IMG/VR virus record: IMGVR_UViG_3300028388_003891
Span: 5,513-69,512 of that record
Length of the DNA stretch: 64,000 bases
Reading direction: 5' to 3' (one strand)
Source: a virus
Taxonomy: Duplodnaviria; Heunggongvirae; Uroviricota; Caudoviricetes
A model generated the notes under the pieces. That model ran no database searches. It saw only the letters and a list, made by a program, of their open reading frames with translations, and was not told where the DNA came from. Below are positions 22,730 through 56,277 of the stretch, piece after piece (within the stretch, counting starts at the first letter, position 1; each line of letters starts with the position of its first letter). Made by a program: the position numbers and the translations under genes.

Positions 22730-24473
22730 GGATAACGTCATAATCACCTTCGAGAAAATACGATACAAAAATCTTTTGTCTGCTGGCAATCAGTGGATAG
22801 AGGTTGATCTGTCCGCACGCGCAACCACCTTGATCATAGGTGAGAATGGCGCTGGCAAGTCGACGATGCTCGACGCGCTGTCGTTTGCCTTATTCGGTAA
22901 GCCTCATCGCAACATCAATAAGCCAATGCTGATCAACAGTATCAATCAGCGCGAGTGCGAAGCGGAAGTCGAATTTACTGTCCACAATTCGAAGTACAAA
23001 ATTGTACGTGGTATGAAACCGACCAGATTTGAAATCTGGCGTGATGGCGAAAGAGTCAACCAAGACAGCAATAGCGCAGACGATCAGAAAATGGTCGAGT
23101 CGACAATTCTCGGTATGAATCACAAGACGTTTCATCAAGTTGTGGTGCTTGGATCGTCGACGTTTACTCCTTTTCTCCAATTATCTACTGCCCAACGACG
23201 TGTAGTAATTGAACAGCTGCTCGACATTTCAATTTTTGGTTCAATGAATCAAGTGGTCAAGCACCATATAAGCGATCTTAAAAGACAATATCAGGAGCAA
23301 ACTGTACACAATAATGCACTGCGTGACGCGATAAAAAGCGAGCAGCGTCATCGCGAGAATCTTGCATCTATCGTGGCACAAAACGAAGATGCCATTCAAC
23401 AACAAGTCGATCACCACAACGATGAAATTGCTAAACTGCGCGCAGCAAATCAAGCAATCAACGAACAATATGGTGGTGATTTGCAAGAAAGTGTTCTAAT
23501 AGCACTCGATGAACGGATCAAGCACTGTGATAAAATTAGCAGCTTGGTGCTCAAGCTACAATCGCAACGTAGCACGTTGGCCAAAGAGCGCACAGTGTTT
23601 GAGCGTGAGGGGCCATGCCCGACCTGCCATCAAGTGATGGATCATGAGACACGCGAAGCCAAACTTGGCGAAATAAGCAACCGCATTCCTGAGATTGAAA
23701 CGGCTCTGGAACAGTTGGTATCTAAACAACGAAAAGCACAGCAAGACGTTGGCGATCTTAGAACGCAGCTTGATCAGATCACTGCGCACCTCAAAGAGAT
23801 CGATGTCAATAATCTACAGATTGACAGCCATCAGCAATCGATCTCTAAGTTGCAGACTAACAAAGGTGGTTCTCATGACCAAGAGCTAAAAACGATTGAC
23901 GCCACAATTGCACGTAAAAGTGGCGAGCTAGTAAAGTGTATGGAGCAAGTAAACGACACGTTTACAACAATGCAGTATTACGACGTAATACAAGAGCTAC
24001 TTAAAGACACAGGAATCAAGGCGAAAGTAATCGATCAGTACTTGCCCGTAATCAATCAGCAGGTCAACAAATACCTGCAAGCTCTTGATTTGTTTGTTGA
24101 TTTTGAACTCGATAATGTTTTTACCGACACTATTCGTGCTCGCCACCGTGATGAAATGTCTTACCCTTCATTCAGCGAAGGTGAAAAAACGCGAATCGAT
24201 GTCGCGCTTCTTTTTGCGTGGCGCGAGGTGGCTAGACTAAAAAATAGTATAAGTACCAACCTACTGATCCTCGATGAAACATTCGACGCCTCACTCGACG
24301 GTGCAGGTGTTGATAACCTATTAGACGTTCTTTATGATACACGTCAATCAACGAACGTGTTCGTAATATCTCATAAGGCACGTCTTCAGGACAGGTTCGA
24401 TGCCACGATGCAGTTTACAAAACCATCGCTTTTTTCTTCATACACTATACTAGAGAATAATGAGTCAAACTAA
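22689..24473 (+). CDS. recombination endonuclease subunit (gp46, Rad50/SbcC-like ATPase)
   Basis: Walker A GENGAGKST, coiled-coil with CPTC zinc hook, signature SEGEKTRIDVALLF, Walker B LILDE; first in-frame ATG is 22689 but homology to T4 gp46 begins near 22737. Confidence 0.8.
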   Translation: MTLNKKRTNCRSYEDNVIITFEKIRYKNLLSAGNQWIEVDLSARATTLIIGENGAGKSTMLDALSFALFGKPHRNINKPMLINSINQRECEAEVEFTVHNSKYKIVRGMKPTRFEIWRDGERVNQDSNSADDQKMVESTILGMNHKTFHQVVVLGSSTFTPFLQLSTAQRRVVIEQLLDISIFGSMNQVVKHHISDLKRQYQEQTVHNNALRDAIKSEQRHRENLASIVAQNEDAIQQQVDHHNDEIAKLRAANQAINEQYGGDLQESVLIALDERIKHCDKISSLVLKLQSQRSTLAKERTVFEREGPCPTCHQVMDHETREAKLGEISNRIPEIETALEQLVSKQRKAQQDVGDLRTQLDQITAHLKEIDVNNLQIDSHQQSISKLQTNKGGSHDQELKTIDATIARKSGELVKCMEQVNDTFTTMQYYDVIQELLKDTGIKAKVIDQYLPVINQQVNKYLQALDLFVDFELDNVFTDTIRARHRDEMSYPSFSEGEKTRIDVALLFAWREVARLKNSISTNLLILDETFDASLDGAGVDNLLDVLYDTRQSTNVFVISHKARLQDRFDATMQFTKPSLFSSYTILENNESN

Positions 24474-25353
24474 AGAGAAAACGATCAGGTACACAGAGAT
24501 CTTTTACTCCCCTCAAGGCGAGGGGGAGCATACGGGCAAGATGACAGCATGGGTAAGGCTATTCAGTTGCAACCTTGAGTGCCGAGGGTTTGGACAACCG
24601 GACCCAGCAGATCCTAAAACGTATCACCCCGTCGGCAATGAACTCGATTTGTCAGATATCACTTCTCTTGAGCAACTGCAAGTTTTCCCTGTTGGGTGCG
24701 ACAGCGCCTACAGTGTTGCTAAACGATTTCGTCATCTAGCACATCAAGCCACAGCCAGCGAGATTGCTCAACAGCTAGTTGATCTGATACCTAATAACAG
24801 TTGGACAAATCAGCCTACTGGTAATGATATTCACTTAGCGTTCACAGGCGGAGAGCCTATGATGCAGCAGCGTGCCATCGCCGACATCATTGACGCTTTA
24901 ATCAGTCTCGGCCAGTGCCCTCTTAACGTCACAATCGAGACTAACGGAACCATGCCTACCACTGATCAGATTCGGCATGCGGTGCGAGCGATAGAGTCGC
25001 GTGGTGGTTCATGGTTCTGGTCTTTATCTCCTAAGCTACACAACACAGCTGGCGAGCCTACTGAAAAGGCGATCAAGCCTGATGTGGTGCATGAGTATCA
25101 AAAGCTGTCAGATAAAGGTCAGCTCAAGTTTGTCGTTAACGGGTCTAAAGCATCGTGGGATGAGCTTGATTCTACCTTAATTAAGTTTAGACAAAATGAC
25201 GTATTGTTTTCCGCGTGGGTGATGGGTGTCGGTGGTACTATCGAAAATCTCAGGCTGACCGAAGCTGACATTGCCGTGGAAGCAATTAAACGGGGTTATC
25301 ATTACTCGTCGAGAGTACACGCACATCTCTTTGGAAATGAATTAGGGACATAA
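24460..25353 (+). CDS. QueE-like radical-SAM enzyme (7-carboxy-7-deazaguanine synthase family, divergent)
   Basis: N-terminal EIFYSPQGEGEHTGKMTAWVRLFSCNLECRGFG matches QueE substrate/cluster region with variant Cys motif. Confidence 0.55.
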   Translation: MSQTKEKTIRYTEIFYSPQGEGEHTGKMTAWVRLFSCNLECRGFGQPDPADPKTYHPVGNELDLSDITSLEQLQVFPVGCDSAYSVAKRFRHLAHQATASEIAQQLVDLIPNNSWTNQPTGNDIHLAFTGGEPMMQQRAIADIIDALISLGQCPLNVTIETNGTMPTTDQIRHAVRAIESRGGSWFWSLSPKLHNTAGEPTEKAIKPDVVHEYQKLSDKGQLKFVVNGSKASWDELDSTLIKFRQNDVLFSAWVMGVGGTIENLRLTEADIAVEAIKRGYHYSSRVHAHLFGNELGT

Positions 25354-25354
25354 T

Positions 25355-25660
25355 ATGAATTTTTACAAACCCTTCACGGGACAAATTGTAGTATTGATGA
25401 CACCGATTGGCGAAATCGTTGGGCGATTTAAGACGGGGTCTGAGAACTGGGTCGAGCTAAAGGATCCGCGACTGTTCTTTGCATCAGGAGAGGGTCAAGG
25501 TGGTTTTACACCAGGGGTTTCACAAATCGGTGTTAGTGAACCAGATTCCTCACCTTTTTCTACTAGCCAGATCATCACCATCCAGATTGCACGAGATGAG
25601 GTTGCGCAAGCGTGGCAACAAGTAACAACTGGTTTGGTGGTACCGCAAGGAGCGTTGTAA
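25355..25660 (+). CDS. hypothetical protein (101 aa)
   Basis: ORF inside deazapurine cluster. Confidence 0.4.
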   Translation: MNFYKPFTGQIVVLMTPIGEIVGRFKTGSENWVELKDPRLFFASGEGQGGFTPGVSQIGVSEPDSSPFSTSQIITIQIARDEVAQAWQQVTTGLVVPQGAL

Positions 25661-26154
25661 TGCAACCTGTATCATACAAATTCGTGAGCACTAAAGAATA
25701 TATCGATGCCTTTCCTTGTGCCTATAGACAACACCGTGCCGACTCTCACTGTAATCTGATACACGGATATAGCTTTTCAATGAAGTTCTGGTTTGGCAGT
25801 GATGACCTTGATGTGCGCAATTGGGTAGCAGATTATGGCGGCCTTAAAGAGCTGAAAACCGTTTTACAGGAACAGTTCGATCACACTCTCCTCGTTGCGG
25901 AGGACGATCCTAAGATCCAAGTGTTCAAATTGCTCGAGCAACGCAATCTTGCACGGTTAACAATTCTACCTCGCCTTGGATGTGAAGGGCTAGCAGACAT
26001 GCTGTATAAATATGTGAACGGCGTCTACATCCCTGATTACTGGGGTCCTTCCGAAGCAGAGCGACTGTGGTGTTTTCGTGTTGAGGTACGGGAAACGCAA
26101 AGCAACATGGCCTACCGTGAAGGGCATCGCGAATGGAATGAAGAGCTGTTCTAA
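25660..26154 (+). CDS. queD: QueD (6-carboxy-5,6,7,8-tetrahydropterin synthase, T-fold)
   Basis: CAYRQH...CNLIHGYSF (Cx5HGH)...FDHTLL motifs; start ATG overlapping upstream stop (TAATG). Confidence 0.7.
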   Translation: MQPVSYKFVSTKEYIDAFPCAYRQHRADSHCNLIHGYSFSMKFWFGSDDLDVRNWVADYGGLKELKTVLQEQFDHTLLVAEDDPKIQVFKLLEQRNLARLTILPRLGCEGLADMLYKYVNGVYIPDYWGPSEAERLWCFRVEVRETQSNMAYREGHREWNEELF

Positions 26155-26265
26155 ACAACGAGTTTTCTATCTGTTGTTCCACGCAATGTGGGTTTTAGAT
26201 AGCCAAGGTACAGTCCGCCCTTGCTTCTTTCTACGGACGTTAAGCTAAACCCGAAAGGAGATTAC

Positions 26266-26934
26266 ATGTCTAAATCAAATCCCGACCTCGGTCGGCAAGT
26301 AAACGAGCACCTCGTGCAACTTGGAATTCATACCCCCGTTACCGATATGGTGATGGAAGATCGTGAAACCAAAATTGCAAAGGTCGCAGAACTCACTAGA
26401 GAAATGTTGGAGGTACTTGGTCTCGATCTCTCAGACGACAGCTTGGAAGAAACTCCAATGCGCGTTGCGAAGATGTACGTCGATGAGACTTTTGCCGGTC
26501 TTCGTTATGATACTTTTCCTAAATGCACCACAGTAGAAAACAAGTTCTGCCACGGTGATGAATTTGTCCTCGAGAAGAACATAACGCTATACAGCGACTG
26601 CGAACATCACCTTCGTCCTATTATTGGCAAAGCGCACATTGCGTACATACCAAAGGATAAAGTGATGGGGCTGTCAAAGTTGAATCGCATCACACAATAC
26701 TTCGCCAGGCGCCCGCAAGTGCAAGAGCGTCTTAATCAGCAAATTGCTCACTCAATCGCATTCATCACTGAAAGTGAAGATGTGATGGTAGTGATCGAAG
26801 CTGAACACACCTGTGTGTCCCAACGCGGTATTAAAGACACTTCAAGCTCAACTGTCACGGCTTGTTGCCTTGGTCAGTTTGGCATTCACAACAGCGAGCT
26901 GCGTAAAGAGGTTATGGCCAATATCAATAGGTAA
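26266..26934 (+). CDS. folE: GTP cyclohydrolase I (FolE)
   Basis: ETPMRVAKMY, CEHHLRP, GLSKLNRI, FARRPQVQERL, IEAEHTC motifs; GGAG RBS before ATG 26266. Confidence 0.85.
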   Translation: MSKSNPDLGRQVNEHLVQLGIHTPVTDMVMEDRETKIAKVAELTREMLEVLGLDLSDDSLEETPMRVAKMYVDETFAGLRYDTFPKCTTVENKFCHGDEFVLEKNITLYSDCEHHLRPIIGKAHIAYIPKDKVMGLSKLNRITQYFARRPQVQERLNQQIAHSIAFITESEDVMVVIEAEHTCVSQRGIKDTSSSTVTACCLGQFGIHNSELRKEVMANINR

Positions 26935-28618: not shown

Positions 28619-28947
28619 CCGACCAAAAAGAATTACGAGTTAAACGTGGAGAGTTAAAGATCATTGACGAGCTTCGTGATTATGTAATCGCGACGTACAA
28701 CCAGCACTATCGTACAGAAAATGAAGATGGTGATGAGATCCAAGTACTGGATATTTGGGAAGCACTCGATATGGATATTGCGGCGATGCATTCTAACATC
28801 GTCAAGTATGCCTTTCGTTACGGTCGCAAAAACGGGTACAATCGAAAAGATCTTTTCAAAATACTCCATTACACCGTGCTGTTGATCCACTACAGCGAAC
28901 AACGTGGGTTATTCACTGTAGTGGATCCACAGCTGGAGAGTGTGTAA
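28615..28947 (+). CDS. hypothetical protein (110 aa)
   Basis: ATGA-coupled ORF (internal Met of ORF 28555). Confidence 0.4.
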   Translation: MTDQKELRVKRGELKIIDELRDYVIATYNQHYRTENEDGDEIQVLDIWEALDMDIAAMHSNIVKYAFRYGRKNGYNRKDLFKILHYTVLLIHYSEQRGLFTVVDPQLESV

Positions 28948-29468
28948 TGAGTCTGCGTAATATAGCCCTTTCCACCAATCCAGCAGAGTTGTCTCATACT
29001 GAAGAGGATGATGTTCAGCCAAATGCTGTCGACATACGTCTCGATAAAGTGTGGCAAATTTCCAACGAGACGTTTACCCTCAGTGATAGTCACAAGGGGC
29101 ATCGTGGGTCCGAAGAGCTGTCGTTTACCCGTCATTTCCCCGACCATGAAGGCGAATGGATCGATCTATATCCAGGCAGCTATGAGTTTACCGCTAGAGG
29201 TACTGTGCTAGTTCCGCCTGGGTTCGCTGGGTGGGTAGTTACTCGAAGCACACTGAACCGTAATGGTGTCTTCATAACATCCGGCCTGTACGATAGCGGC
29301 TATCATGGAGTAATGGCCGGCGTAATACATGTATCTTGCGGTCCCTTTCTGGTTCAGCGAGGAACACGCATTGGTCAGTTTATACTTGTCGACGCTGAAA
29401 CATCTCATCAGTACGATGGCGATTACGGTTTGGGTAAAAAGCACGATGATAAGTACACGACTGCGTAG
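28947..29468 (+). CDS. dCTP deaminase/dUTPase-fold protein
   Basis: AVDIRLDKVW...VLVPPGFAGWVVTRSTLNRNGVFITSGLYDSGYHG...IGQFIL matches Dcd/dUTPase fold pattern. Confidence 0.6.
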   Translation: MSLRNIALSTNPAELSHTEEDDVQPNAVDIRLDKVWQISNETFTLSDSHKGHRGSEELSFTRHFPDHEGEWIDLYPGSYEFTARGTVLVPPGFAGWVVTRSTLNRNGVFITSGLYDSGYHGVMAGVIHVSCGPFLVQRGTRIGQFILVDAETSHQYDGDYGLGKKHDDKYTTA

Positions 29469-29576
29469 CACAATCTGGTAGTGCGCTGAACTCTAAATTC
29501 ATGAGATAACGGTTCAAATCCGTTCGCAGTCACCATATATACACCGCAATGACTAATGACTTTAAGGGAAACAAAC

Positions 29577-30799: not shown

Positions 30800-31104
30800 A
30801 TACGAGCAGTTGAACAACTACCCACCTCGATTTTAGACATTGGAACCAGAGTCCCAATGACGGACAAACCAGTCGCGGCACAGGCGATCAATATTGTTGT
30901 AGAACTGCGTGAAGCTCGAGATCATGAACTGAAACGATTGACTCGTCGCCAGTTGCAAAGTATCATTGATAAAGAAACTGCCCGACAAACACAGCGGAGG
31001 ACTACATCTGATGGCTATTGGCGAAGATCGTGATCCAATCTATGGAATAGTGTACGCATCTTGTACGCTAGTGATTGGCGGCCCGATTCTTGCATTTGCT
31101 GGTG

Positions 31105-31452
31105 GGGCGTTCCATTAACGAAATTCGATGAAGCACAACGAACGGTGCTAAGGACGGGGGTTCGATTCCCCCCACCTCCACCAAAAAGCATACTCTTCCC
31201 GCGAAAGCGGTGCGATGGAAGTCGTCATAATCAACCAAGGGAGTATGCTTTTTGATGGGGGTGCACTGGCTTCGACTTGGACTTAATAGCTTGTGTGGAG
31301 AATAGGTGCGGAAGCTACCTTAAACGCAACAAAGTAAAAAAGTGACGCAGCTAATGATGCTGTGTATGATGTGGCTCTAGCAGCCTGATCATACTGGGGA
31401 TTGACTATCCTTATTATCCAATAAGTCCGGGCAGGTTAAACCTGCCCGTTTT
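31105..31452 (+). ncRNA. ssrA: two-piece (circularly permuted) tmRNA gene (ssrA): acceptor piece ending CCA at 31183, excised stem-loop 31184-31256, coding piece from 31257 with tag ORF 31347-31388, terminator 31429-31452
   Basis: GGGGG-TTCGATT-CCCCC T-arm + CACCTCC-A-CCA; perfect 12-bp inverted repeat AAAAGCATACTC/GAGTATGCTTTT; GGGGGTG...GGCTTCGAC 5' piece with G3 opposite U70; tag GCAGCTAATGATGCTGTGTATGATGTGGCTCTAGCAGCCTGA = AANDAVYDVALAA; 5' boundary approximate. Confidence 0.75.
31429..31452 (+). terminator. rho-independent terminator ending tmRNA coding piece
   Basis: GGGCAGG-TTAAA-CCTGCCC + GTTTT. Confidence 0.75.
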
Positions 31453-31553
31453 AGTTTTCTAATTGTAAACGGCCCCTTCTGTTGAATTACGTTTGATAGA
31501 TACGTGACTGTATGGTTGCTGAAAAACAGCAATCCTTTGAAATGGAGATCATT

Positions 31554-32504
31554 ATGAAACAAGTGTTTCGCTCAATTGCGATAGCTACCGCAATCGCATT
31601 AACCGCCGCGTGTGGTGCCAAGGTGGAAGTGCCGCCTGCTCACGTTGGCAAAGTCCTTACCCGAAACGGCTTTGCGCCGGAAACTCTCGCCCCAAGCAAA
31701 TTCCGCCTCGAGCCGTGCATAGCGTACTGTGACAAGCTAGTTTTGCTGCAGGCTAATGACGCGCCATTCCATGAGAAAATGGAAGTGTTCATGCCTGAAG
31801 ACAAACTGAATCTTAGTGTTGAGGTTCGTGGCACGATGTCGATCATGTCGAATAACAGCCGTACAATCGATTCACTATATGATCGCATTACTGCTGTGCC
31901 AACGGACGACAATGATGTCAATGTCATAACCGCAGAATTGATATATCGTACATACGGGCAACCGACCCTACGTGGTGTTGTGCGCAATAAGATTGCGGAA
32001 TACACAATTGCTGATGTGATGGCCAACCGTGAAGCGCTTGCTCAGACTATTCACGACGCCATTGTTGATAGGATGGAAGCTACCAGCACTCCATTAATGT
32101 TTTCGCGCTTTGAGCTTGCTGACATCCAGCCGCCTCTAGTGATTATCGAGGCACAAGTTACCGCGAAAAAACGTGAGATCGACATCATGACGGCCAACGC
32201 CGACGCCGAGGTCAAAATGGTGGAAGCAGAGCGCGACCTCGAGATAGCTCAGAAACGACGTCTTGTAGAGCGTGAAAAAGCAGAGGCAATTGCTGAGCAA
32301 AACCAGATCGCGGCCGCTTCAATTACCCCACAGCTACTCGAATATCGACGTCTCGAAGTACAAGAGCGCGTGTTTACACAACTTGCTAACGGTACCAACG
32401 AAGGTCTAATGATCGTGCCGATTGACACTAACAGCATCAACTCGACCACTGAGGGTGCTGTGTTTGGACGTGTCGCTGGCAAGCAAATCGCTAGCGCTAA
32501 GTAA
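31554..32504 (+). CDS. SPFH/band-7 (HflK/flotillin-like) lipoprotein
   Basis: signal peptide with lipobox-like LTAAC, SPFH core then coiled-coil EAERDLEIAQKRRLVEREKAEAIAEQ; start at ATG with GGAGA RBS. Confidence 0.6.
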   Translation: MKQVFRSIAIATAIALTAACGAKVEVPPAHVGKVLTRNGFAPETLAPSKFRLEPCIAYCDKLVLLQANDAPFHEKMEVFMPEDKLNLSVEVRGTMSIMSNNSRTIDSLYDRITAVPTDDNDVNVITAELIYRTYGQPTLRGVVRNKIAEYTIADVMANREALAQTIHDAIVDRMEATSTPLMFSRFELADIQPPLVIIEAQVTAKKREIDIMTANADAEVKMVEAERDLEIAQKRRLVEREKAEAIAEQNQIAAASITPQLLEYRRLEVQERVFTQLANGTNEGLMIVPIDTNSINSTTEGAVFGRVAGKQIASAK

Positions 32505-46939: not shown

Positions 46940-47171
46940 ACATGACAGTGATGTAGGTGAAGGCGTAACGGGTGTGATCACAATCACACAAACGCCCGAA
47001 GCAGATAAATGGTTTTCAGAACTACACCCCGACCAGCAAATAGTCATAGCCGACCTCGAGCAACGGTTAGCTCAAGCTAGAGCTGCTGGCGACACGCAAA
47101 CGACAAAGGAGCTGTCCGAAGAGCTGGGCCGTTTGCTTGGCTCTTTACTTTGTGACACACTAGGTTTATAA
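46851..47171 (+). CDS. hypothetical protein (106 aa), overlaps previous
   Basis: ORF in alternate frame; uncertain. Confidence 0.3.
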   Translation: MQRGVIKQLERQRTLLSFQNHKLQNMTMIEHDSDVGEGVTGVITITQTPEADKWFSELHPDQQIVIADLEQRLAQARAAGDTQTTKELSEELGRLLGSLLCDTLGL

Positions 47172-47839
47172 TGACATTCAATCTTGACTTGATACAGGGC
47201 ATTCCCGAGAGCGAGCGCATTGAGATAGATGGCGTTCGACACTACGTACTAGAGGACGGGTGCCACAAACCTTATCCTTCTGTGACGACAGTTGTCGAAA
47301 CTGATCCTGGTAAACAACGAAGTTTATTAGCATGGCGTCAGCGAGTAGGCGACAAAAACGCTGACCATATTTCCGATCAAGCAGCCGACACGGGTAGCAA
47401 GGCGCACAAGTTGATCGAAAACTATATACGAGGGGATGAGCTTGATTTTTCACAATGCGGTTTAGTGGCCCAAGATATGTTTCACCGCTTACAACAGACA
47501 GCGGACGAACATATAAACAACGTGCGAATGATCGAGCAGCAGATGGTTTCGCATCATCTTCGCGTAGCTGGTACAGTAGACCTAGTGGCTGAGTGGGATC
47601 AGCAGCTCGCAATTATTGATTGGAAAACTTCACGAAAACAAAAACGTGTTGAATATATCGACGGCTATTTTATGCAAGAGTCTGCGTACGCCGTAATGGT
47701 CGAGGAGATGACGGGAATTCCGATAACCAAGCTAGTGACAGTAATCGCAACGCTCGATGGTCATTTGCAGGTGTTTGAAAGTGAAAGAGATCAGTGGATC
47801 GACAAATTCATTGCGTTACGCAGCCGCATGGCTGATTGA
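47171..47839 (+). CDS. PD-(D/E)XK nuclease (RecB/Cas4-like fold)
   Basis: VDLVAEW...LAIIDWKTSRK core motif. Confidence 0.55.
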   Translation: MTFNLDLIQGIPESERIEIDGVRHYVLEDGCHKPYPSVTTVVETDPGKQRSLLAWRQRVGDKNADHISDQAADTGSKAHKLIENYIRGDELDFSQCGLVAQDMFHRLQQTADEHINNVRMIEQQMVSHHLRVAGTVDLVAEWDQQLAIIDWKTSRKQKRVEYIDGYFMQESAYAVMVEEMTGIPITKLVTVIATLDGHLQVFESERDQWIDKFIALRSRMAD

Positions 47840-50275: not shown

Positions 50276-50361
50276 CGCGGGATATACAAGCGGTCAACGT
50301 GATAGGGCTCATAACCCTATACCTTAGTGTTTCGTGGGTTCGAATCCCACTCCCGCAACCA
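50276..50361 (+). tRNA. initiator tRNA-fMet-like (CAU), atypical 14-nt variable region
   Basis: acceptor CGCGGGA/TCCCGCA with C1-A72 mismatch, anticodon stem-loop GGG-CTCATAA-CCC, 3' end CCCGCAACCA identical to E. coli tRNAfMet; T-arm GTGGG-TTCGAAT-CCCAC. Confidence 0.55.
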
Positions 50362-50734
50362 AATTAACAGGCTGCCTTTCACATAGCCTGTTTTGACCGG
50401 CCCCTGTTTTTCCTCCTCCTTTTCGCAGGGGCCGGTCACCCTCTCCCCCGTTGCCCTCAATCTGACATTAAGAGATAATGTCTATGTTGAATTGAGGAGG
50501 CACCAATGAGCAAATACATTGTTTTCCAAATCGAAGTGACCCGCGCCATGGCCGACAAGATCGAGGTGTGATCGACATCAGAGAGTCGATAATGCCGACC
50601 CACGTCACACTGGCGATTGAAGACGGCCGCCTGATGGTCGTCGACGGCAGTGGGTATGACTTCATCATTGAGGAAGAAGATGAAACACAATCCAGTAGCT
50701 AAACACGCACACAAGTTCAACAAATGCGCCAAGC

Positions 50735-50992
50735 ATGTTGACCGTAAGGCGCGTTCTAAGCGAGGATATCGCAAACACAGGAGAATTGATAATGGGTGTT
50801 GAGAACACAAATGTGGATACCAAAGAGCTCATGGTCGAGATTGATCTTGAACTTGGATCACTTGCGGCGCGGATCGCAACCGGCCTAACGTACAGCGAAA
50901 TCGTCGCGTTCGTTGAAATGATTGATAGCGAGGTATCCGACACCGAGTTTACGGACCAACTGATTAACGCCGTCCTACGCCTCAATGATTAA
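50735..50992 (+). CDS. hypothetical protein (85 aa)
   Basis: ORF inside tRNA array. Confidence 0.3.
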   Translation: MLTVRRVLSEDIANTGELIMGVENTNVDTKELMVEIDLELGSLAARIATGLTYSEIVAFVEMIDSEVSDTEFTDQLINAVLRLND

Positions 50993-51044
50993 CTGCCCTG
51001 ATGAGTCTTACAGGAGACGAAACGCGCTGATAGCGCGTCGGCAG
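50993..51044 (+). ncRNA. type I hammerhead ribozyme (HHR-2) whose cleavage site is the 5' end of the downstream tRNA
   Basis: CUGCC-CUGAUGA-GUCU/UACAGG/AGAC-GAAA-CGCGC/UGAUA/GCGCG-UC^-GGCAG; cleavage after C51039. Confidence 0.75.
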
Positions 51045-51121
51045 AGTACACCCGTAACTGGTAGCGGCCCGCACTGTAACTGCGCATAACGTTGGGGGTT
51101 CGAATCCCTCCTCTGCCACCA
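51040..51121 (+). tRNA. tRNA with GUA anticodon (Tyr-type), 8-nt variable region, irregular D region
   Basis: acceptor GGCAGAG/CTCTGCC, anticodon stem CGCA/TGCG loop CTGTAAC, T-arm GGGGG-TTCGAAT-CCCTC, A73, CCA. Confidence 0.5.
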
Positions 51122-51136
51122 AATTGAAAGGAGTTT

Positions 51137-51499
51137 GTGATGAATAAACGCTTCACGATTATCGCTGCGATAGTGATAGGCATCGGTAGTTTGTTTACTC
51201 TTTACGAAGGGGTCAAAGCTATCCGGCAGTATGCGTGGAACCATGAGGTTGTTGACGCTCGTCCCGTCGGTCCCGTTCGCACTGAGCAACGATTGATCGA
51301 ATGTGAGTATACAGGAATATGCTCTCGCTTTGATCCGCTGAACGGCGAGATGAGAACGGGGTTATCATCCTTTTGTCGCGGTCACCGTCCGGTCGTTGCT
51401 CGCATACAAGATGTGCAAGAGACGCTTCGTAACGGCGAGCAACGAATTCGAGAAGAGATAATGAGTCGCACAATCGTCGAGGGCGTAGCATGCAGATGA
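51137..51499 (+). CDS. membrane-anchored protein (120 aa)
   Basis: N-terminal TM helix. Confidence 0.4.
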   Translation: MMNKRFTIIAAIVIGIGSLFTLYEGVKAIRQYAWNHEVVDARPVGPVRTEQRLIECEYTGICSRFDPLNGEMRTGLSSFCRGHRPVVARIQDVQETLRNGEQRIREEIMSRTIVEGVACR

Positions 51500-51533
51500 G
51501 CAAAGACGTAACCAAAGAGATTCTCAAAACGAA

Positions 51534-51607
51534 AGGGGATTAGCATAACGGTAGTGCGTCGGACTCTGACTCCGAATGTGGTGGTTCAATTCCACCATCC
51601 CCCGCCA
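51534..51607 (+). tRNA. tRNA-Gln (CUG)
   Basis: acceptor aGGGGAT/ATCCCCC, anticodon stem TCGGA/TCCGA loop CTCTGAC, T-arm GGTGG-TTCAATT-CCACC, G73, CCA. Confidence 0.65.
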
Positions 51608-51612
51608 ACAAA

Positions 51613-51688
51613 GCAGCTTTAGCAATGATGGTTCATGCGCTGGCCTGAAGTCCCAGATATCTCGGTTCGATCCCGAGGAGCTGCACCA
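51613..51688 (+). tRNA. tRNA-Phe (GAA)
   Basis: acceptor GCAGCTT/GAGCTGC, loop CTGAAGT, T-arm CTCGG-TTCGATC-CCGAG, A73, CCA. Confidence 0.65.
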
Positions 51689-51708
51689 AACAACAAAGGC
51701 GATGAGCA

Positions 51709-51969
51709 ATGTATGCAGTTCCCGAACGGTTTGATGTCCAGGCGCTTGGACGCACGATTACAGTGGTCTCCACGGCGAAGCCAGAAGATGGCGTGTATCA
51801 ATTGTGCGTAGAGATAGATGGCGAAATGGTACAGCTCGATACCTCGGTGCGAATAGAAGGACAGGAACTCTCATATATGATTCACGAGGAGGGGTATCAC
51901 GACATCTTGTTCCGTCTGGTTGCAGACGCAATTGAAGAACAGATGGGCCGTTCAGAAGCAAACAGCTAA
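51709..51969 (+). CDS. hypothetical protein (86 aa)
   Basis: ORF in tRNA array. Confidence 0.4.
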   Translation: MYAVPERFDVQALGRTITVVSTAKPEDGVYQLCVEIDGEMVQLDTSVRIEGQELSYMIHEEGYHDILFRLVADAIEEQMGRSEANS

Positions 51970-51970
51970 A

Positions 51971-52048
51971 GCGCCTGTAGCCCAATCAGGTAGAGGCAGC
52001 GGCTTTAAACCCCGTTCAGTGTGGGTTCGATCCCCTCCAGGCGCACCA
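51971..52048 (+). tRNA. class-I tRNA with UAA anticodon (Leu-type anticodon, 5-nt variable loop)
   Basis: acceptor GCGCCTG/CAGGCGC, anticodon stem GCGGC/CCCGT (1 mismatch) loop TTTAAAC, T-arm GTGGG-TTCGATC-CCCTC, A73, CCA. Confidence 0.5.
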
Positions 52049-52082
52049 ACATCGGTTGACGACAACACGCTGGTAAGGGACA

Positions 52083-52301
52083 ATGAGTCTTTTGGAGGAT
52101 AAAACAATGGGTGAACGAACAATTCCTGCTCCAACAGAGCATCACTTCAGCTTTGCGACGGCAGTGGTCGATAATATGGTTCGCAACTGTGGAATCACAA
52201 GCTCCGGCGAAGACATCGATAAACTTAAAGACGCGATGGTTTCGTGCATTGCCCACCGTGACGCAGAGATCCTGTGGCTGCGCAAACTGGTGCATCCGTG
52301 A
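52083..52301 (+). CDS. hypothetical protein (72 aa)
   Basis: ORF. Confidence 0.3.
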   Translation: MSLLEDKTMGERTIPAPTEHHFSFATAVVDNMVRNCGITSSGEDIDKLKDAMVSCIAHRDAEILWLRKLVHP

Positions 52302-52603
52302 TGTTGTACACTCCAGATAGATGGGTGTTGCTGGAAATCGAGCCGTACAAGTTGTACAAAGTGCTGGCGGGGTGGAATGGTGGTTATCTTTCGGCGGACG
52401 AATGGCGGATCAACTCCGGCATTAAAAGTCTGACCGATGAAGGCCAATATTTCACAGCAACAGGACACAGCGGCAGTGAATACCGTTTGTACAAGGATGC
52501 AGAGGGGTTCAATAAGATCAGCGCAGATGTGCTGTACAACCTCCAGAATGCTTATCCCCATATCGTCACTGTTTCTGCTGAACAATATTTTACGCGGGTG
52601 TAG
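52274..52603 (+). CDS. hypothetical protein (109 aa)
   Basis: ORF; 3' end overlaps tRNA-Gly start. Confidence 0.4.
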   Translation: MAAQTGASVMLYTPDRWVLLEIEPYKLYKVLAGWNGGYLSADEWRINSGIKSLTDEGQYFTATGHSGSEYRLYKDAEGFNKISADVLYNLQNAYPHIVTVSAEQYFTRV

Positions 52604-52669
52604 CTCAGTTGGTAGAGCATCTGGTTGCCAATCAGAAGGCCGTGGGATCGTGACCCATCACCCGCTCCA
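52594..52669 (+). tRNA. tRNA-Gly (GCC)
   Basis: acceptor GCGGGTG/CACCCGC, D-arm GCTCAGTTGGTAGAGC, loop TTGCCAA, T-loop ATCGTGA, CCA. Confidence 0.75.
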
Positions 52670-52803
52670 AATTCTTGAATATGGAATGAGGAGAACTTAG
52701 TGAACAAACTTCGTAATCCGTACGATTCAAGGCAAGCGCCATCTGGGCGCGAATCTAAACAAAACGAACAACCCAGCCCATACGACGCGAGTGGTGTTCG
52801 TCG

Positions 52804-53100
52804 TTGGCTCGAACGGAAAACGAGGCGAAAACATCAAAAGTGAGATTGCTAATTTTTGCAGCGGTGCTGCTTTGTACAGCCTGCTCGACTACGCCGCCAG
52901 GAGTGACAAAACAGTGCGTACGTTACGAGTACAACAACGACTGGGAAATTGTTCAAATGGGCGGCTTCTACAGAGTAAAAGCGCCTCAGATGATATGCCG
53001 AAAATGGATGTATTATGAAAGTAGCAGTGACCGGTACGCGCCACGGAATGACTCGTCCACAAAGACAAATGGTGATGTCGACGATCCACCAGTAGACTGA
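52804..53100 (+). CDS. putative secreted protein/lipoprotein (98 aa)
   Basis: signal-peptide-like N-terminus ...LLIFAAVLLCTAC. Confidence 0.4.
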   Translation: MARTENEAKTSKVRLLIFAAVLLCTACSTTPPGVTKQCVRYEYNNDWEIVQMGGFYRVKAPQMICRKWMYYESSSDRYAPRNDSSTKTNGDVDDPPVD

Positions 53101-53101
53101 G

Positions 53102-53470
53102 TTGCATCAAGGATGCTGCAAAGGCGTTGATCGCGAATGCTACCTAATGGCAGCAGACAATCCAGACTACGACATAACGATTTACTCGTACCCACCAATT
53201 AATGATCACTATGCGATCAAGTGCCTCGGTCATGTCAATTACAAGCCACAGCCGTTCCTTGTACGCGATCGTGCTCTGGTAGATGCGGCGGATATTCTGC
53301 TATCGATGCCACTTACTGATTACGAGACATTTCGCAGTGGTACATGGTACACTACACGCTATGCTCTGCAGCAGGACAAGCCTGTCGTACTGATTCAACC
53401 TAACGGCACTAGTGTGCCTGCTGATGAAATTGAGAGATACTTACTACCTGGAAAATGGGGTGAAAGGTAA
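53102..53470 (+). CDS. hypothetical protein (122 aa)
   Basis: ORF. Confidence 0.4.
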   Translation: MHQGCCKGVDRECYLMAADNPDYDITIYSYPPINDHYAIKCLGHVNYKPQPFLVRDRALVDAADILLSMPLTDYETFRSGTWYTTRYALQQDKPVVLIQPNGTSVPADEIERYLLPGKWGER

Positions 53471-54435
53471 TGGAATTCATCAAATACAGCTCGATTGAGA
53501 ATCACTACCGTGAGAAGGTTGTCGACTGGTATCGTGAAAATGGATTAGAAAACGTCGGATGGATCTTGACGGAGAAGATCCATGGCGCTAACTTTTCTTT
53601 CTGGTGCAACAGCAGCGAAGTCAAGGTCGCATCTCGTAACCAATGGGTCGACAGCACATTCTATAGCTGTCAGGACATCATCGACGCGTACACGCCCGTT
53701 GTGCTAGAGCTCGCTACTTTCTTCCCCAACAGCACTGTAGCTGTGTATGGGGAGCTGTACGGACCCGGTATTCAGAAGGGGGTCAATTACGGCGACAAAA
53801 AAGATTTCGTTGCCTTCGACATTCGAGTTGACGGATACTTCCTAGATCGTAATAAAGTACATGTGTACATCGCTGGTGCAAACCAGCTGACATTACAAAA
53901 GCACGGTCAGAGGTCCACCTTGATGGACGTTGTCCCTATTGTTGGCTCGACAGTGTCACTAACACAAGTGCTTGAGTTTGATAACGAGTTTGTATCTGTG
54001 CTTGGCCGTCTCAATGGTGTCGACGACGATGCCAACCTTGCTGAGGGATTCATTGCAACGCCAGTCGGCAAAGCGTACCAACGCATTGGCAGCGACCGTG
54101 TGATCCTCAAATCGAAAGGTGAAAAGTGGACAGAGAAAAGCAAGAAGGTAAAGACGCCTCGTGCTCCTGTTACTGAGCACCCACTGACATCAACGGTTGA
54201 GCAGTATGTCAACACCAACCGTGTCGATGCTGTCACAAGTAAGATGGGCCCGTTGACTCCAAAGGACTTTGGTCGGATCATTAGGGCTGTTTGTGATGAT
54301 GTCATTGATGACATGGTGAAGGACGGTGATGTTCGTAGCTGCTGGCGCGATGACGAAGAGACGAAAGACCTTGGCAAGGTTGTTAACAAAGTGGTAGTGC
54401 CTTTCCTCAAGAAAGAGCTGCTACCGACGTTGTAA
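53470..54435 (+). CDS. RNA ligase 2 (T4 Rnl2/gp24.1-like)
   Basis: KYSSIENHY and adenylation motif KIHGANFSF match T4 Rnl2 N-terminus; nucleotidyltransferase plus C-terminal domain size. Confidence 0.75.
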   Translation: MEFIKYSSIENHYREKVVDWYRENGLENVGWILTEKIHGANFSFWCNSSEVKVASRNQWVDSTFYSCQDIIDAYTPVVLELATFFPNSTVAVYGELYGPGIQKGVNYGDKKDFVAFDIRVDGYFLDRNKVHVYIAGANQLTLQKHGQRSTLMDVVPIVGSTVSLTQVLEFDNEFVSVLGRLNGVDDDANLAEGFIATPVGKAYQRIGSDRVILKSKGEKWTEKSKKVKTPRAPVTEHPLTSTVEQYVNTNRVDAVTSKMGPLTPKDFGRIIRAVCDDVIDDMVKDGDVRSCWRDDEETKDLGKVVNKVVVPFLKKELLPTL

Positions 54436-54451
54436 CACGCTTGGCAGTGTA

Positions 54452-54495
54452 GGCGGGTGAGGAACCACGAACTGGATCCAGTGACCCCGCCGTTT
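54452..54495 (+). terminator. terminator-like hairpin after RNA ligase
   Basis: GGCGGG...CCCGCC stem with long loop followed by GTTTTAT. Confidence 0.4.
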
Positions 54496-54505
54496 TATAA
54501 ATTAC

Positions 54506-54582
54506 GTCCCTATAGGTTAACAGGTTAGACCTTCAGGCTTTCAACCTGGCAGAGTGGGGTTCGAGTCCCCCTAGGGACACCA
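54506..54582 (+). tRNA. tRNA-Glu (UUC)
   Basis: acceptor GTCCCTA/TAGGGAC, stem TCAGG/CCTGG loop CTTTCAA, T-loop TTCGAGT, A73 CCA. Confidence 0.75.
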
Positions 54583-54585
54583 AAT

Positions 54586-54686
54586 TACGTGCTTGGTGTA
54601 ATGCGTAGCATACCAAGACCGAACTGCGCGAACGCAGATGTAGGCAATCAAAATGGGAGGTCCAGGTTCGAATCCTGGGGCACGTA
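54586..54686 (+). ncRNA. ~100-nt structured RNA with tRNA T-arm and 8-bp terminal helix but no anticodon arm (tRNA-like / Y-RNA-like candidate)
   Basis: terminal helix TTACGTGC/GCACGTAA, internal hairpins CTTGGT..ACCAAG and CTGCG-CGAA-CGCAG, 3' T-arm CCAGG-TTCGAAT-CCTGG. Confidence 0.3.
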
Positions 54687-54695
54687 ACTAATAAA

Positions 54696-54772
54696 CTGGG
54701 TATAGGGCAGTCTGGTAGCCTACCTCCCTTGGAAGGAGGATGTCGATGGTTCAAATCCATCTACCCAGACCA
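54696..54772 (+). tRNA. tRNA-Pro (UGG)
   Basis: acceptor CTGGGTA/TACCCAG (C1-G72), stem CCTCC/GGAGG loop CTTGGAA, T-arm GATGG-TTCAAAT-CCATC, CCA. Confidence 0.75.
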
Positions 54773-54924
54773 ATTTTGGCTTGTACGCAAGCGGTGACGG
54801 AAGCAGCTTGCAGAATGTGTTGAACGTCAGATGTGGGTAATACTAGAATCGCTATCTAGAACTAAGACATAGCCACGATGCCGGAGATCCGTGGGGTGCG
54901 TCGTGGCGGCCAAAATTCAACAGA

Positions 54925-55000
54925 GGTGCCGTAGCTTAACGGGGAAAGGCTCAGACTGTCAATCTGAGAGATACGGGTTCGAGACCCGTCGGTACCGCCA
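54925..55000 (+). tRNA. tRNA-Asp (GUC)
   Basis: acceptor GGTGCCG/CGGTACC, stem TCAGA/TCTGA loop CTGTCAA, T-arm ACGGG-TTCGAGA-CCCGT, G73 CCA. Confidence 0.75.
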
Positions 55001-55018
55001 AACTAAAAGGAGAAGAAA

Positions 55019-55267: not shown

Positions 55268-55268
55268 T

Positions 55269-55345: not shown

Positions 55346-55351
55346 AACAAT

Positions 55352-55984: not shown

Positions 55985-56012
55985 AGAATAGTGGAGGGCT
56001 AATGCCCATCTG

Positions 56013-56271: not shown

Positions 56272-56277
56272 TCGACG

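What the first reader, a model, noticed from the sequence alone, without database searches (positions are those of the whole stretch)
31105..31452. Phage-encoded circularly permuted (two-piece) tmRNA with tag AANDAVYDVALAA
At 31156-31183 there is a perfect tRNA-like 3' domain: T-arm GGGGG-TTCGATT-CCCCC, acceptor 3' strand CACCTCC, discriminator A, then CCA. Immediately after the CCA, a perfect 12-bp inverted repeat (AAAAGCATACTC 31184-31195 / GAGTATGCTTTT 31241-31252) forms an excisable stem-loop. That loop places GGGGGTG (31257-31263) next to the CCA end. GGGGGTG is the 5' acceptor strand (G3 opposite U70, the Ala identity pair). It is followed by GCACTGGCTTCGAC, resembling the canonical tmRNA 5' sequence GGGGCUGAUUCUGGAUUCGAC. 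Further downstream an internal ORF GCA GCT AAT GAT GCT GTG TAT GAT GTG GCT CTA GCA GCC TGA (31347-31388) encodes AANDAVYDVALAA, with the AND start and ALAA end typical of ssrA degradation tags. A terminator sits at 31429-31452. The gene order (acceptor piece, loop, coding piece) is the permuted ssrA architecture known from alphaproteobacteria and a few other lineages. That suggests an alphaproteobacterial host and a phage that brings its own trans-translation RNA. The ORF-track entry 31061..31255 is an artefact of this RNA.
Basis: partly seen in the sequence, partly recalled or inferred. Interest (0 to 1): 0.8.

Follow-up and report, generated by a model that had tools for sequence, protein, structure and literature searches.

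The report
Phage-encoded two-piece tmRNA gene
A T4-like phage known only from a metagenome carries its own split (two-piece) gene for tmRNA, the RNA that frees stalled ribosomes and marks the unfinished protein for destruction; the gene is real and well formed, but it belongs to a kind already described in other phages.

Summary
ARAGORN calls a permuted tmRNA at 31091-31479. Rfam's permuted-tmRNA model RF04321 scores 95.2 bits (cut-off 47, E 3e-17). The window is a T4-like myophage, and the gene lies in an accessory insert between the gp46 and clamp genes.

I collected 28 related genes from viral and metagenome contigs. Covariation supports the T stem, the P2 helices and the stem of the excised intervening segment: 92% of cells paired against 77% in shuffles. 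A 3' pseudoknot also recurs.

One inference fails. The gene is of the betaproteobacterial type, not the alphaproteobacterial type. Subtype is in any case a poor host marker, because Pseudomonas phage SM1 carries the same type.

Two-piece tmRNAs in phages are already catalogued: 53 unique ones in PMC9004378. This is therefore a divergent new member of a known kind. Processing, charging and tagging are inferred, not shown. The host is unknown, and no SmpB gene is in the window.

The parts
30938..30966 (+). Best sigma-70-like promoter match upstream (TTGACT-17-TATCAT). It is a candidate start of the precursor transcript, about 150 nt before the acceptor piece. Uncertain.
   Evidence: 10 of 12 matches. 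A consensus match only.
31089..31117 (+). Weak promoter-like segment TTGCAT-17-CATTAA. It aligns with the promoter-like 5' end of the Rfam beta_tmRNA model. Relatives have consensus promoters here (L003 TTGACA-17-TATAAT, L001 TTGACG-17-TATAAT).
   Evidence: Alignments. The -10 lacks the final T, so the scan did not call it.
31123..31183 (+). Acceptor piece (5' end approximate). P2d 5' strand 31123-26; P2c 5' strand 31133-38; P2a 5' strand 31147-52; GAC linker 31153-55 (G31152, the first base of the conserved GGAC, lies in P2a); T stem-loop 31156-72; acceptor 3' strand 31173-79; discriminator A 31180; encoded CCA 31181-83.
31184..31256 (+). Intervening segment, 73 nt, to be excised. A 12-bp stem (31184-95 with 31241-52) stacks on the acceptor stem across a 4x4 internal loop (ACCA opposite UGAU). 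U31256 is at position -1 of the predicted RNase P site.
   Evidence: z -7.45. The stem covaries in relatives, with 7 of 10 pairs changed on both sides. UGAU is invariant.
31257..31303 (+). 5' part of the coding piece. Acceptor 5' strand GGGGGUG 31257-63 (G3 = 31259); D-loop analogue CACUGGCUUCGA 31264-75; P2a 3' strand 31276-80 plus C31282 (A31281 bulged); P2c 3' strand 31291-96; P2d 3' strand 31300-03.
31304..31320 (+). P3 hairpin (AGGU/ACCU, with an inner GC-GGAA-GC). This is the position of pseudoknot PK1 in canonical tmRNA. A possible 3-bp second stem pairs 31308-10 with 31326-28.
   Evidence: The hairpin covaries in relatives. The second stem is too short to decide.
31347..31388 (+). Tag reading frame: GCA GCT AAT GAT GCT GTG TAT GAT GTG GCT CTA GCA GCC TGA, encoding AANDAVYDVALAA plus stop. 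Alternative resume codons in the same frame are GAC 31344 (ARAGORN) and GCT 31350 (aligned with the relatives' GCA).
31364..31394 (+). P5-like helix enclosing the end of the tag frame and the stop codon (GUAUGAU 31364-70 with AUCAUAC 31388-94; inner GGCU/AGCC).
   Evidence: (13-nt arms, 85% complementary).
31396..31427 (+). 3' H-type pseudoknot. S1 pairs GGGGA 31396-400 with UCCUU 31408-12. S2 pairs GACU 31403-06 with AGUC 31424-27. The conserved loop is AUUAUCCAAUA.
   Evidence: The same topology occurs in the relatives, where S2 is different but complementary in each. In the window S2 is only 4 bp.
31428..31458 (+). Intrinsic terminator: CGGGCAGGU-UAA-ACCUGCCCG followed by UUUUAGUUUU. This is the likely 3' end of the coding piece.
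   Evidence: (z -5.06).

Best explanation
This is a genuine, probably functional, circularly permuted ssrA gene of the betaproteobacterial structural type, carried by a deep-branching T4-like myophage.

Shown by computation: the gene order, all tRNA-like-domain elements, the P2 helices, the tag frame, the P5 helix, the 3' pseudoknot, the terminator, and covariation for most helices across relatives.

Inferred from established tmRNA biology (two-piece tmRNA of Caulobacter, Keiler et al. 2000; beta lineage, Sharkady & Williams 2004, both cited in PMC9004378):
1. One precursor is transcribed through to the terminator at 31428-58.
2. The acceptor stem forms between 31173-79 and 31257-63, with the intervening stem stacked on it.
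3. Host RNase P cuts between U31256 and G31257.
4. Host nucleases trim the intervening segment back to CCA 31183.
5. The two RNAs stay together through the acceptor stem and P2.
6. Host alanyl-tRNA synthetase charges the RNA through G3-U70 and A73.
7. With host SmpB and EF-Tu it enters stalled ribosomes.
8. Translation resumes most likely at GCA 31347 and appends (A)AANDAVYDVALAA, whose ALAA end directs the product to ClpXP-type proteases.

For the phage, the likely benefit is keeping ribosomes free while mRNAs are being degraded during infection. The gene would act as part of a translation-support set together with the ~29 phage tRNA genes.
For: - Detection: ARAGORN permuted tmRNA call. RF04321 scores 95.2 bits against a cut-off of 47, E 3e-17. 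RF01850 aligns end to end, 31076-31451, at 59.2 bits, E 2e-17.
- Direct reading of the sequence: 7-bp acceptor stem with G3-U70, A73, encoded CCA, T loop UUCGAUU.
- Conserved positions: GGA of GGAC and UGGnUUCGAC are invariant, and the C of GGAC nearly so, across 29 genes.
- Covariation on alignment A2: 92.4% of cells paired against 77.1 +/- 0.7 in shuffles (0 of 500 reach it). 24 of 37 pairs change on both sides. Sliding the partners gives 45-58% paired.
- The window itself carries compensatory changes in P2a: CUAAG/CUUGG against the consensus UUCUG/CAGGG.
- The T stem has 11 different sequences, always complementary.
- The tag frame is intact and ends in ALAA like all relatives.
- The 3' pseudoknot and P5 helix are present.
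- The terminator is strong.
- Phage context: T4 core genes on the same strand on both sides. Local GC is 0.49 against 0.47 for the surroundings.
- Precedent: 53 unique two-piece tmRNAs in isolate phages (PMC9004378).
Against: - It is the most divergent member found, only 55-71% identical to any relative.
- It falls below RF01850's gathering score (59.2 against 84). Its RF04321 score (95) is lower than all the relatives scored with Rfam (L001-L016, 112-163).
- The conserved UAAAY motif before the resume codon is replaced by GUGAC, so the resume codon is not certain.
- S2 of the 3' pseudoknot has only 4 bp, against 5-10 in relatives.
- No convincing promoter lies directly upstream.
- No SmpB-like coding potential is in the window (a weak test), so function would depend on host SmpB.
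- The phage is a singleton. Its clamp protein was seen once among 5.8 billion proteins, so conservation of this exact sequence cannot be shown.
- Nothing about expression, processing or charging is shown.
Confidence: 0.85

Rival explanations
1. The gene is a decaying or repurposed copy. It no longer tags proteins but acts, at most, as a tRNA-like decoy that titrates host SmpB and so inhibits host trans-translation. This has been proposed for the tRNA-like-domain-only RNA of mycobacteriophage DS6A.
For: - It has the lowest model scores of the whole set, and the beta model score is below its cut-off.
- The resume-codon context UAAAY is lost.
- The 3' pseudoknot is shortened.
- The DS6A precedent is described in PMC4131195 and PMC11915505.
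Against: - The 13-codon frame is intact, ends in the canonical ALAA plus stop, and keeps the AANDxxY spacing.
- P2, P5 and the pseudoknot are all still formable, with compensatory changes in the window's own P2a.
- A decoy would need none of the coding piece.
Confidence: 0.1
2. One reading: an alphaproteobacterial-type two-piece tmRNA captured from, and indicating, an alphaproteobacterial host.
For: - The permuted gene order is commonest in Alphaproteobacteria: 21,950 alpha-type against 594 beta-type instances in Pseudomonadota.
- Known T4-like pelagiphages carry alpha-type genes (PMC9004378).
Against: - beta_tmRNA is the best-scoring model of the clan, so any alpha or cyano match scored lower.
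- The gene shares three motifs with genes scoring 85-158 bits on the beta model: the intervening-stem sequence AAAGCAUA...UAUGCUUUUGAU, GGAGAAU, and the pseudoknot loop CCUUAUUAYCCAA.
- Subtype does not track host. SM1 on Pseudomonas carries the beta type, and Melnitz carries the alpha type on a gammaproteobacterium.
Confidence: 0.04
3. The gene is not a phage gene. It is host ssrA DNA joined to phage DNA by misassembly, or an attachment-site fragment of ssrA of the kind temperate phages carry.
For: ssrA is a frequent integration site, and phages can carry fragments of it (PMC9004378, PMC4131195).
Against: - The gene is complete, with both pieces, the tag and a terminator. It is not a 3' fragment.
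- It lies between phage genes on the same strand, with matching GC.
- None of the ORFs scanned against PHROGs or Pfam between 22.5 and 39 kb is an integrase.
- At least 15 related loci carry their tmRNA next to a phage exonuclease gene.
- The structural pattern found nothing in 185,579 bacterial and archaeal species genomes.
Confidence: 0.01

Closest known systems
Betaproteobacterial two-piece tmRNA (Rfam RF01850 beta_tmRNA; lineage described by Sharkady & Williams 2004, cited in PMC9004378)
   Same: - Same gene order and the same set of elements, aligned end to end with the model: P2 built from the 5' end of the acceptor piece and the 5' region of the coding piece, P3 hairpin, AND...LAA tag, post-tag hairpin or pseudoknot with a CCUU...CCAA loop, and a terminal hairpin.
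- RF01850 is the best-scoring model of the clan.
   Different: - It scores 59.2 bits, below the curated cut-off of 84.
- The distal P2 registers differ.
- The intervening segment is 73 nt, against roughly 30 in the model consensus.
- CCA is encoded, whereas the model consensus reads CCc.
- It is carried by a phage, not a bacterial chromosome.
Phage-borne beta-type two-piece tmRNAs in environmental viral contigs (L001-L042 here) and in isolates such as Pseudomonas phage SM1 (KU245542; listed as permuted in Table S1 of PMC9004378)
   Same: - Homologous over the whole gene.
- Long intervening segment (59-119 nt) with a covarying stem.
- CCA is encoded and UGAU precedes the 5' end.
- The 3' pseudoknot is present.
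- Tags are of the form (A)AND...[LMV]AA.
- Often found with phage tRNA genes. L031 heads a 27-tRNA array.
   Different: - Only 55-71% identical.
- No UAAAY before the resume codon.
- Not next to the PD-(D/E)XK exonuclease gene that flanks it in at least 15 relatives. In the window that gene is 16 kb away, at 47171-47839.
- An explicit intrinsic terminator is present.
Alpha-type and cyano-type two-piece tmRNAs of T4-like marine phages, phiCbK-like Caulobacter phages and cyanomyophages (Melnitz, HTVC008M, Mosig, S-CRM01; PMC9004378)
   Same: A T4-like or other large phage carrying a complete permuted ssrA in an accessory region. The presumed role is supporting translation during infection.
   Different: - The structural subtype differs: beta here.
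- No glutamine riboswitch or any other Rfam family lies next to it.
One-piece tmRNAs of mycobacteriophages (Bxz1 group) and Bacillus phage G (PMC4131195)
   Same: A phage-encoded tmRNA accompanied by many phage tRNA genes.
   Different: Those have the standard, unpermuted gene order.

Membership tests
tmRNA (any form) | tRNA-like domain: 7-bp acceptor stem with G3-U70, discriminator A73 and a 3' CCA | tested here: met
   GGGGGUG 31257-63 pairs with CACCUCC 31173-79, followed by A31180 and CCA 31181-83. The G-U pair is invariant in 29 genes.
tmRNA (any form) | T arm with a tRNA-like T loop | tested here: met
   GGGGG-UUCGAUU-CCCCC at 31156-72. All 5 pairs covary among relatives and are 100% paired.
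tmRNA (any form) | D-loop analogue and GGAC junction (the SmpB-binding face) | tested here: met
   CUGGcUUCGAC and GGAC are present. GGA of GGAC and CTGG.TTCGAC are invariant, and the C of GGAC is nearly invariant (>=90%), in A2. SmpB binding itself was not tested.
tmRNA (any form) | Internal tag reading frame ending in a hydrophobic ...LAA-type terminus plus a stop codon | tested here: met
   31347-31388 encodes AANDAVYDVALAA plus a stop. The exact resume codon is uncertain (GAC 31344, GCA 31347 or GCT 31350).
tmRNA (any form) | P2 helix joining the tRNA-like and mRNA-like domains | tested here: met
   P2a, P2c and P2d are formable in the window. P2a and P2d are supported by changes on both sides in relatives. 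P2c is only 65% paired across the set.
tmRNA (any form) | Pseudoknot PK1 upstream of the tag | tested here: inconclusive
   The P3 hairpin is present and covaries. The candidate second stem has only 3 bp.
tmRNA (any form) | Aminoacylation with alanine, SmpB dependence, and tagging of stalled products | not testable with these tools
   Needs biochemistry or infected-cell proteomics.
Permuted (two-piece) tmRNA, Rfam RF04321 | Acceptor piece ending in CCA lies upstream of the coding piece that starts with the acceptor 5' strand; score at or above the gathering score | tested here: met
   95.2 bits against 47, model positions 1-213 of 213. ARAGORN flags it tmRNA*.
Permuted (two-piece) tmRNA, Rfam RF04321 | The precursor is cleaved into two RNAs held together by base pairing | not testable with these tools
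   Inferred from the need for a free CCA end and from the covarying processing stem.
Beta-type two-piece tmRNA, Rfam RF01850 | Score at or above the curated gathering score (84 bits) | tested here: not met
   59.2 bits, E 2.4e-17, full-length alignment, best of clan CL00001. I therefore call it beta-like, not a certified RF01850 member.
Beta-type two-piece tmRNA, Rfam RF01850 | Lineage-specific sequence shared with certified members | tested here: met
   It shares AAAGCAUA...UAUGCUUUUGAU, GGAGAAU and CCUUAUUAYCCAA with loci scoring 85-158 bits on RF01850.
Alpha-type two-piece tmRNA, Rfam RF01849 | Best-scoring permuted subtype model | tested here: not met
   Only the best clan member is listed, and that was RF01850. 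Any alpha match scored below 59.2 bits.

The most novel reading that the evidence does not exclude
The window's gene may belong to a phage-adapted lineage of beta-type two-piece tmRNAs that circulates among unrelated phages. Examples are T4-like myophages, Samunavirus siphophages of Pseudomonas, the Xanthomonas jumbo phage XacN1, and phages with 27-29 tRNA genes.

This lineage would spread independently of the host's own tmRNA type. It would be marked by a long intervening segment (59-119 nt) with a covarying processing stem, and by an encoded CCA.

That arrangement was found in none of 185,579 bacterial and archaeal species genomes. If the idea is right, tmRNA would be a mobile translation-support module of phages rather than a recent capture from each host. 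The scattered beta-type calls in unrelated phyla and archaeal MAGs would then be phage DNA.
Probability: 0.3. Interest if true: 0.45.

Novelty: new member of a known kind. Interest (0 to 1): 0.3.

Why it matters
For annotation, the locus should be recorded as a permuted ssrA gene. The small ORFs over it should be dropped.

For biology, it adds a deep-branching T4-like phage to the list of phages that bring their own ribosome-rescue RNA. That phage has about 29 tRNA genes and an amber-reading tRNA.

The comparison set assembled here also shows three more general points:
- The stem of the excised intervening segment is kept by compensatory changes. This argues that it is a real processing signal.
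- A 3' pseudoknot recurs in this group.
- The permuted subtype of a phage tmRNA should not be used to predict the host.

None of this overturns current understanding.

Tried and rejected
- **Close relatives of the phage.** Megablast of 24 kb against GenBank phages found nothing. The clamp protein is a singleton, with the next relatives at 42% identity. Exact-protein look-up of the source contig failed. Loci fetched through the clamp (L017-L019) have no tmRNA.
- **Host through the tag.** A degenerate-codon search for ANDAVYDVALAA found nothing in species genomes or viral contigs.
- **Host through gene structure.** The pattern CACCTCCACCA-N50-80-GGGGGTGNNCTGGNTTCGAC found 16 viral contigs but nothing in genomes.
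- **Phage-encoded SmpB.** A window protein whose homologues flank the tmRNA in relatives looked promising. It is a PD-(D/E)XK exonuclease.
- **TAG recoding.** This was suggested by the amber-reading tRNA. It is rejected: TAG is a rare but normal stop, and treating it as sense does not lengthen genes.
- **QueE at 24460-25353.** This was my own guess from the translation. Pfam did not confirm it.
- **PK1.** No convincing second stem was found.
- **Relatives among isolate phages.** Searches with L031 found no match. Searches with L001 found only acceptor-piece matches.
- **My own error.** My first P2a coordinates were off by one base. This was found and corrected.
Full report
**Observation.**
- T arm: 31156-72 (GGGGG-TTCGATT-CCCCC).
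- Acceptor 3' strand CACCTCC 31173-79, A31180, CCA 31181-83.
- A perfect 12-bp inverted repeat, 31184-95 with 31241-52.
- GGGGGTG 31257-63, placing G3 opposite U70.
- The D-loop analogue CACTGGCTTCGAC.
- An in-frame GCA...GCC TGA at 31347-88.
- A terminator at 31428-48 followed by a T tract.

The repeat finder merges the acceptor and intervening stems into one 23-nt inverted repeat. That helix folds with z = -7.45 against shuffles, and the terminator with z = -5.06. ARAGORN calls a permuted tmRNA at 31091-31479. Rfam's permuted-tmRNA model RF04321 scores 95.2 bits against a cut-off of 47, E 3e-17 for the whole window.

**What carries it.** The window is a T4-like myophage.
- It encodes tail sheath, portal, major head protein, UvsW-type helicase, gp47/gp46-type nuclease, sliding clamp, clamp loader, RegA, B-family polymerase, UvsX, gp41-type helicase, ligase, and an array of about 28 tRNA genes at 50-60 kb.
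- Its polymerase is only 42-46% identical to anything in GenBank phages. The nearest are Kyanoviridae and marine single-cell viruses.
- There is no nucleotide-level relative.
- Its clamp protein occurs once among 5.8 billion proteins, on an 87-kb JGI contig.
- In the nearest isolate genome, Phage C48C1, the clamp gene follows gp46 directly. In the window about 8.5 kb of accessory genes sit between them. These are PTPS/QueD-like and GTP cyclohydrolase I genes, a dCTP-deaminase-like gene, an amber-reading tRNA, a VWA protein, the tmRNA, and an SPFH lipoprotein.

The tmRNA is therefore an accessory gene in a plastic region of a lytic-type phage genome. It is not a host fragment.

**Which kind of permuted tmRNA.** With clan competition, the best of the older Rfam models is beta_tmRNA RF01850. 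It aligns end to end (31076-31451) at 59.2 bits, E 2e-17, but below its curated cut-off of 84. Alpha and cyano models were lower and therefore not listed.

I retrieved relatives in two ways:
- A structural DNA pattern found 16 IMG/VR contigs.
- A second pattern, restricted to the coding piece, found about 25 more loci in metagenome and viral collections.

ARAGORN finds permuted tmRNAs in them with tags of the form AND....A[LMV]AA. Of the first 16 loci, 14 pass RF01850's cut-off, at 85-158 bits. The window shares lineage-specific sequence with them: AAAGCAUA...UAUGCUUUUGAU around the intervening segment, GGAGAAU at the end of P2, and a CCUUAUUAYCCAA loop after the tag. I therefore call it beta-like. 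It is the most divergent member, only 55-71% identical to any other.

**Are the relatives phage genes?** Yes, largely.
- A PD-(D/E)XK exonuclease (PHROG 298, homologue of window 47171-47839) lies immediately upstream of the tmRNA on the same strand in at least 15 loci.
- Others carry UvsX, gp41 helicase or DUF932 homologues 57-69% identical to the window's.
- The nearest relative, L031, heads a 27-tRNA array interspersed with homing endonucleases.
- Among isolates, Pseudomonas phage SM1 has an unannotated gene scoring 111 bits on RF01850, with tag ANDTSFDVRLAA. Shorter acceptor-piece matches occur in Xanthomonas phage XacN1 and a Stenotrophomonas phage.

**Structure tested by covariation.** On the 29-gene alignment A2 I wrote the structure from the window's coordinates and counted pairs.

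| Measure | Result |
|---|---|
| Cells forming standard pairs | 92.4%, against 77.1 +/- 0.7% in shuffles (0 of 500 reach it) |
| Pairs with changes on both sides | 24 of 37 |
| Pairing after sliding partners by 1-3 columns | 45-58% |

Per helix:
- T stem: all 5 pairs covary and are always paired. There are 11 different stem sequences.
- Intervening stem: 7 of 10 pairs covary, 98% paired. My search patterns did not constrain this region.
- P2a: 4 of 6 pairs covary. The window itself has compensatory changes (CUAAG/CUUGG against UUCUG/CAGGG).
- P2d: 4 of 4 pairs covary.
- Acceptor stem: invariant, partly because the search pattern selected for it, so it says nothing either way.
- P2c: weaker, 65% paired.

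After the tag, a script found an H-type pseudoknot in 18 unique relatives and the window.
- S1 pairs GGGG(A/U) with (U/A/G)CCUU, with an A-U/U-A/U-G exchange at the fifth pair.
- S2 is different but complementary in each sequence.
- Two of the solutions (L009, L039) look forced, and one sequence (L038) was missed.
- In the window S2 is only 4 bp.

The end of the tag frame and the stop codon lie in a P5-like helix. The P3 hairpin before the tag covaries, but a second stem that would make it pseudoknot PK1 has at most 3 bp, so PK1 is undecided.

**The tag.** The frame is unambiguous, but the first codon is not. There are three candidates.

| Resume codon | Tag | Hairpin-to-resume spacing (relatives: 22-25 nt) | Basis |
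|---|---|---|---|
| GAC 31344 | DAAND... | 23 nt | ARAGORN's choice |
| GCT 31350 | AND... | 29 nt | Aligns with the relatives' GCA |

- All relatives start with an alanine codon preceded by UAAAY. The window has GUGAC there.
- Two relatives have a doubled alanine codon like the window: L026 (UAAAC|GCA GCA AAC) and L031 (UAAAU|GCA GCU AAC). In both, the conserved context marks the first GCA, and ARAGORN reads AAND there.

I favour GCA 31347 at roughly 55%, with GAC at about 25% and GCT at about 20%. The tag keeps the AANDxxY spacing and the ALAA end. From established knowledge of the E. coli ssrA tag, these are the adaptor and ClpX recognition parts.

**Mechanism.**
- Shown: the anatomy above.
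- Inferred from established tmRNA biology:
  1. One precursor is transcribed.
  2. RNase P cuts before G31257. U at -1 and the invariant UGAU fit a conserved processing site.
  3. The intervening segment is removed back to the encoded CCA.
  4. The two RNAs are held together by the acceptor stem and P2.
  5. Host AlaRS charges the RNA.
  6. Host SmpB and EF-Tu deliver it to stalled ribosomes.
  7. Translation resumes on the tag frame.
  8. The tagged product is degraded.
- The promoter is unclear. The segment aligned with the relatives' consensus promoters is weak here (TTGCAT-17-CATTAA). The best sigma-70 match lies about 150 nt further upstream.
- No SmpB-like gene is in the window (weak test).

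**Host.**
- The subtype is beta-like.
- Subtype does not track host. SM1 grows on P. aeruginosa. By my own knowledge, Pseudomonas, Xanthomonas and Stenotrophomonas have one-piece tmRNA. Melnitz carries an alpha-type gene while infecting a gammaproteobacterium (PMC9004378).
- Searches for the same tag in species genomes and viral contigs found nothing.

The host remains unknown.

**Comparison with what is known, and novelty.** Phage tmRNAs have been known since the Bxz1-type mycobacteriophages (PMC4131195). Buchholz et al. (PMC9004378) counted 133 unique tmRNAs in 402 of 18,146 phage genomes. Of these, 53 were two-piece, mostly in aquatic phages including T4-like myophages, and their Table S1 already lists SM1 as permuted. 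The 2025 tmRNA database holds 79 phage sequences and supplied the RF04321 model that detects this gene. So this is a new, divergent member of a known kind, found automatically by standard tools.

**A possibly new point.** All 29 genes have long intervening segments (59-119 nt) and an encoded CCA. The second search did not constrain either feature. The same arrangement was absent from 185,579 species genomes. Beta-type genes are rare in cellular genomes: 594 in 183,138 Pseudomonadota, with scattered counts in unrelated phyla and archaeal MAGs. This hints at a phage-adapted, horizontally moving lineage. I could not test bacterial genes with shorter spacers, so it remains a hypothesis.

**Verdict.** This is a real, well-formed and probably functional gene. 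Interest is modest at 0.3.

Noticed in passing
window 29459-29535 (+): A tRNA with anticodon CTA (amber-reading; ARAGORN labels it 'Pyl'), 65.8 bits on the Rfam tRNA model, with an encoded CCA. It lies 1.6 kb upstream of the tmRNA. It overlaps the TAG stop (29466-68) of the dCTP-deaminase-like gene 28947-29468. TAG is the rarest stop (6 of 60 genes), and there is no sign of TAG recoding.
   Followed up: partly
window 50276-60482 (+): An array of about 28 tRNA genes covering most amino acids. Rfam also calls a tRNA at 51040-51118 that ARAGORN misses. No tRNA-Ala was called in the window.
   Followed up: no
L043 1418-1809 (= KU245542.1 about 54019-54410): Pseudomonas phage SM1 has a complete beta-type two-piece tmRNA (RF01850 111 bits, tag ANDTSFDVRLAA, acceptor GGGGCUG/CAGCUCC). 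It is not annotated in the GenBank record. The same match occurs in phages FBPa45, UF_RH6 and PaMx31, with a related acceptor-piece match in PA_L9. It is listed as permuted in Table S1 of PMC9004378. To my knowledge the host has a one-piece tmRNA.
   Followed up: partly
L001, L003, L004, L005, L008, L014, L023-L025, L030, L032, L034, L037, L038, L041, L042; window 47171-47839: In at least 15 related loci a PD-(D/E)XK exonuclease gene (PHROG 298) lies immediately upstream of the tmRNA on the same strand. In the window the homologous gene is 16 kb downstream of the tmRNA. Whether the pairing has a functional meaning is unknown.
   Followed up: partly
L031 853-9251: The nearest relative of the window's tmRNA (tag AANDAYFGEVRLAA) is the first gene of a 27-tRNA array interrupted by three homing or HNH endonuclease genes. 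The contig shares no protein with the window.
   Followed up: partly
Genome-contig scan; L001-L042: The arrangement CCA-encoded acceptor piece, 50-80 nt spacer, GGGGGTG..CTGG.TTCGAC was found in 16 viral contigs but in none of 185,579 species genomes. All 29 unique genes have spacers of 59-119 nt, against about 30 in the RF01850 consensus. This may mark a phage-specific form. Bacterial genes with short spacers could not be scanned.
   Followed up: partly
window 25612-26934 (+): PTPS/QueD-like (PF01242) and GTP cyclohydrolase I (PF01227) genes lie next to each other. This suggests a pterin or 7-deazaguanine pathway. The neighbouring ORF 24460-25353 has no Pfam match.
   Followed up: partly
window 31554-32504 (+): Directly downstream of the tmRNA terminator is an SPFH/Band-7 protein (PF01145, PHROG 200 'lipoprotein'). 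It appears to have a signal peptide and a lipobox-like LTAAC, read from the translation. Its start is probably the ATG at 31554, after a GGAG, rather than 31512.
   Followed up: no
Supplementary Table 2 of PMC11915505: Beta-type permuted tmRNA calls are scattered in small numbers across unrelated phyla (Bacteroidota 23, Bacillota 7, Acidobacteriota 5, Patescibacteria 5) and archaeal MAGs (7 in all). Phage contigs binned into MAGs could explain these.
   Followed up: no
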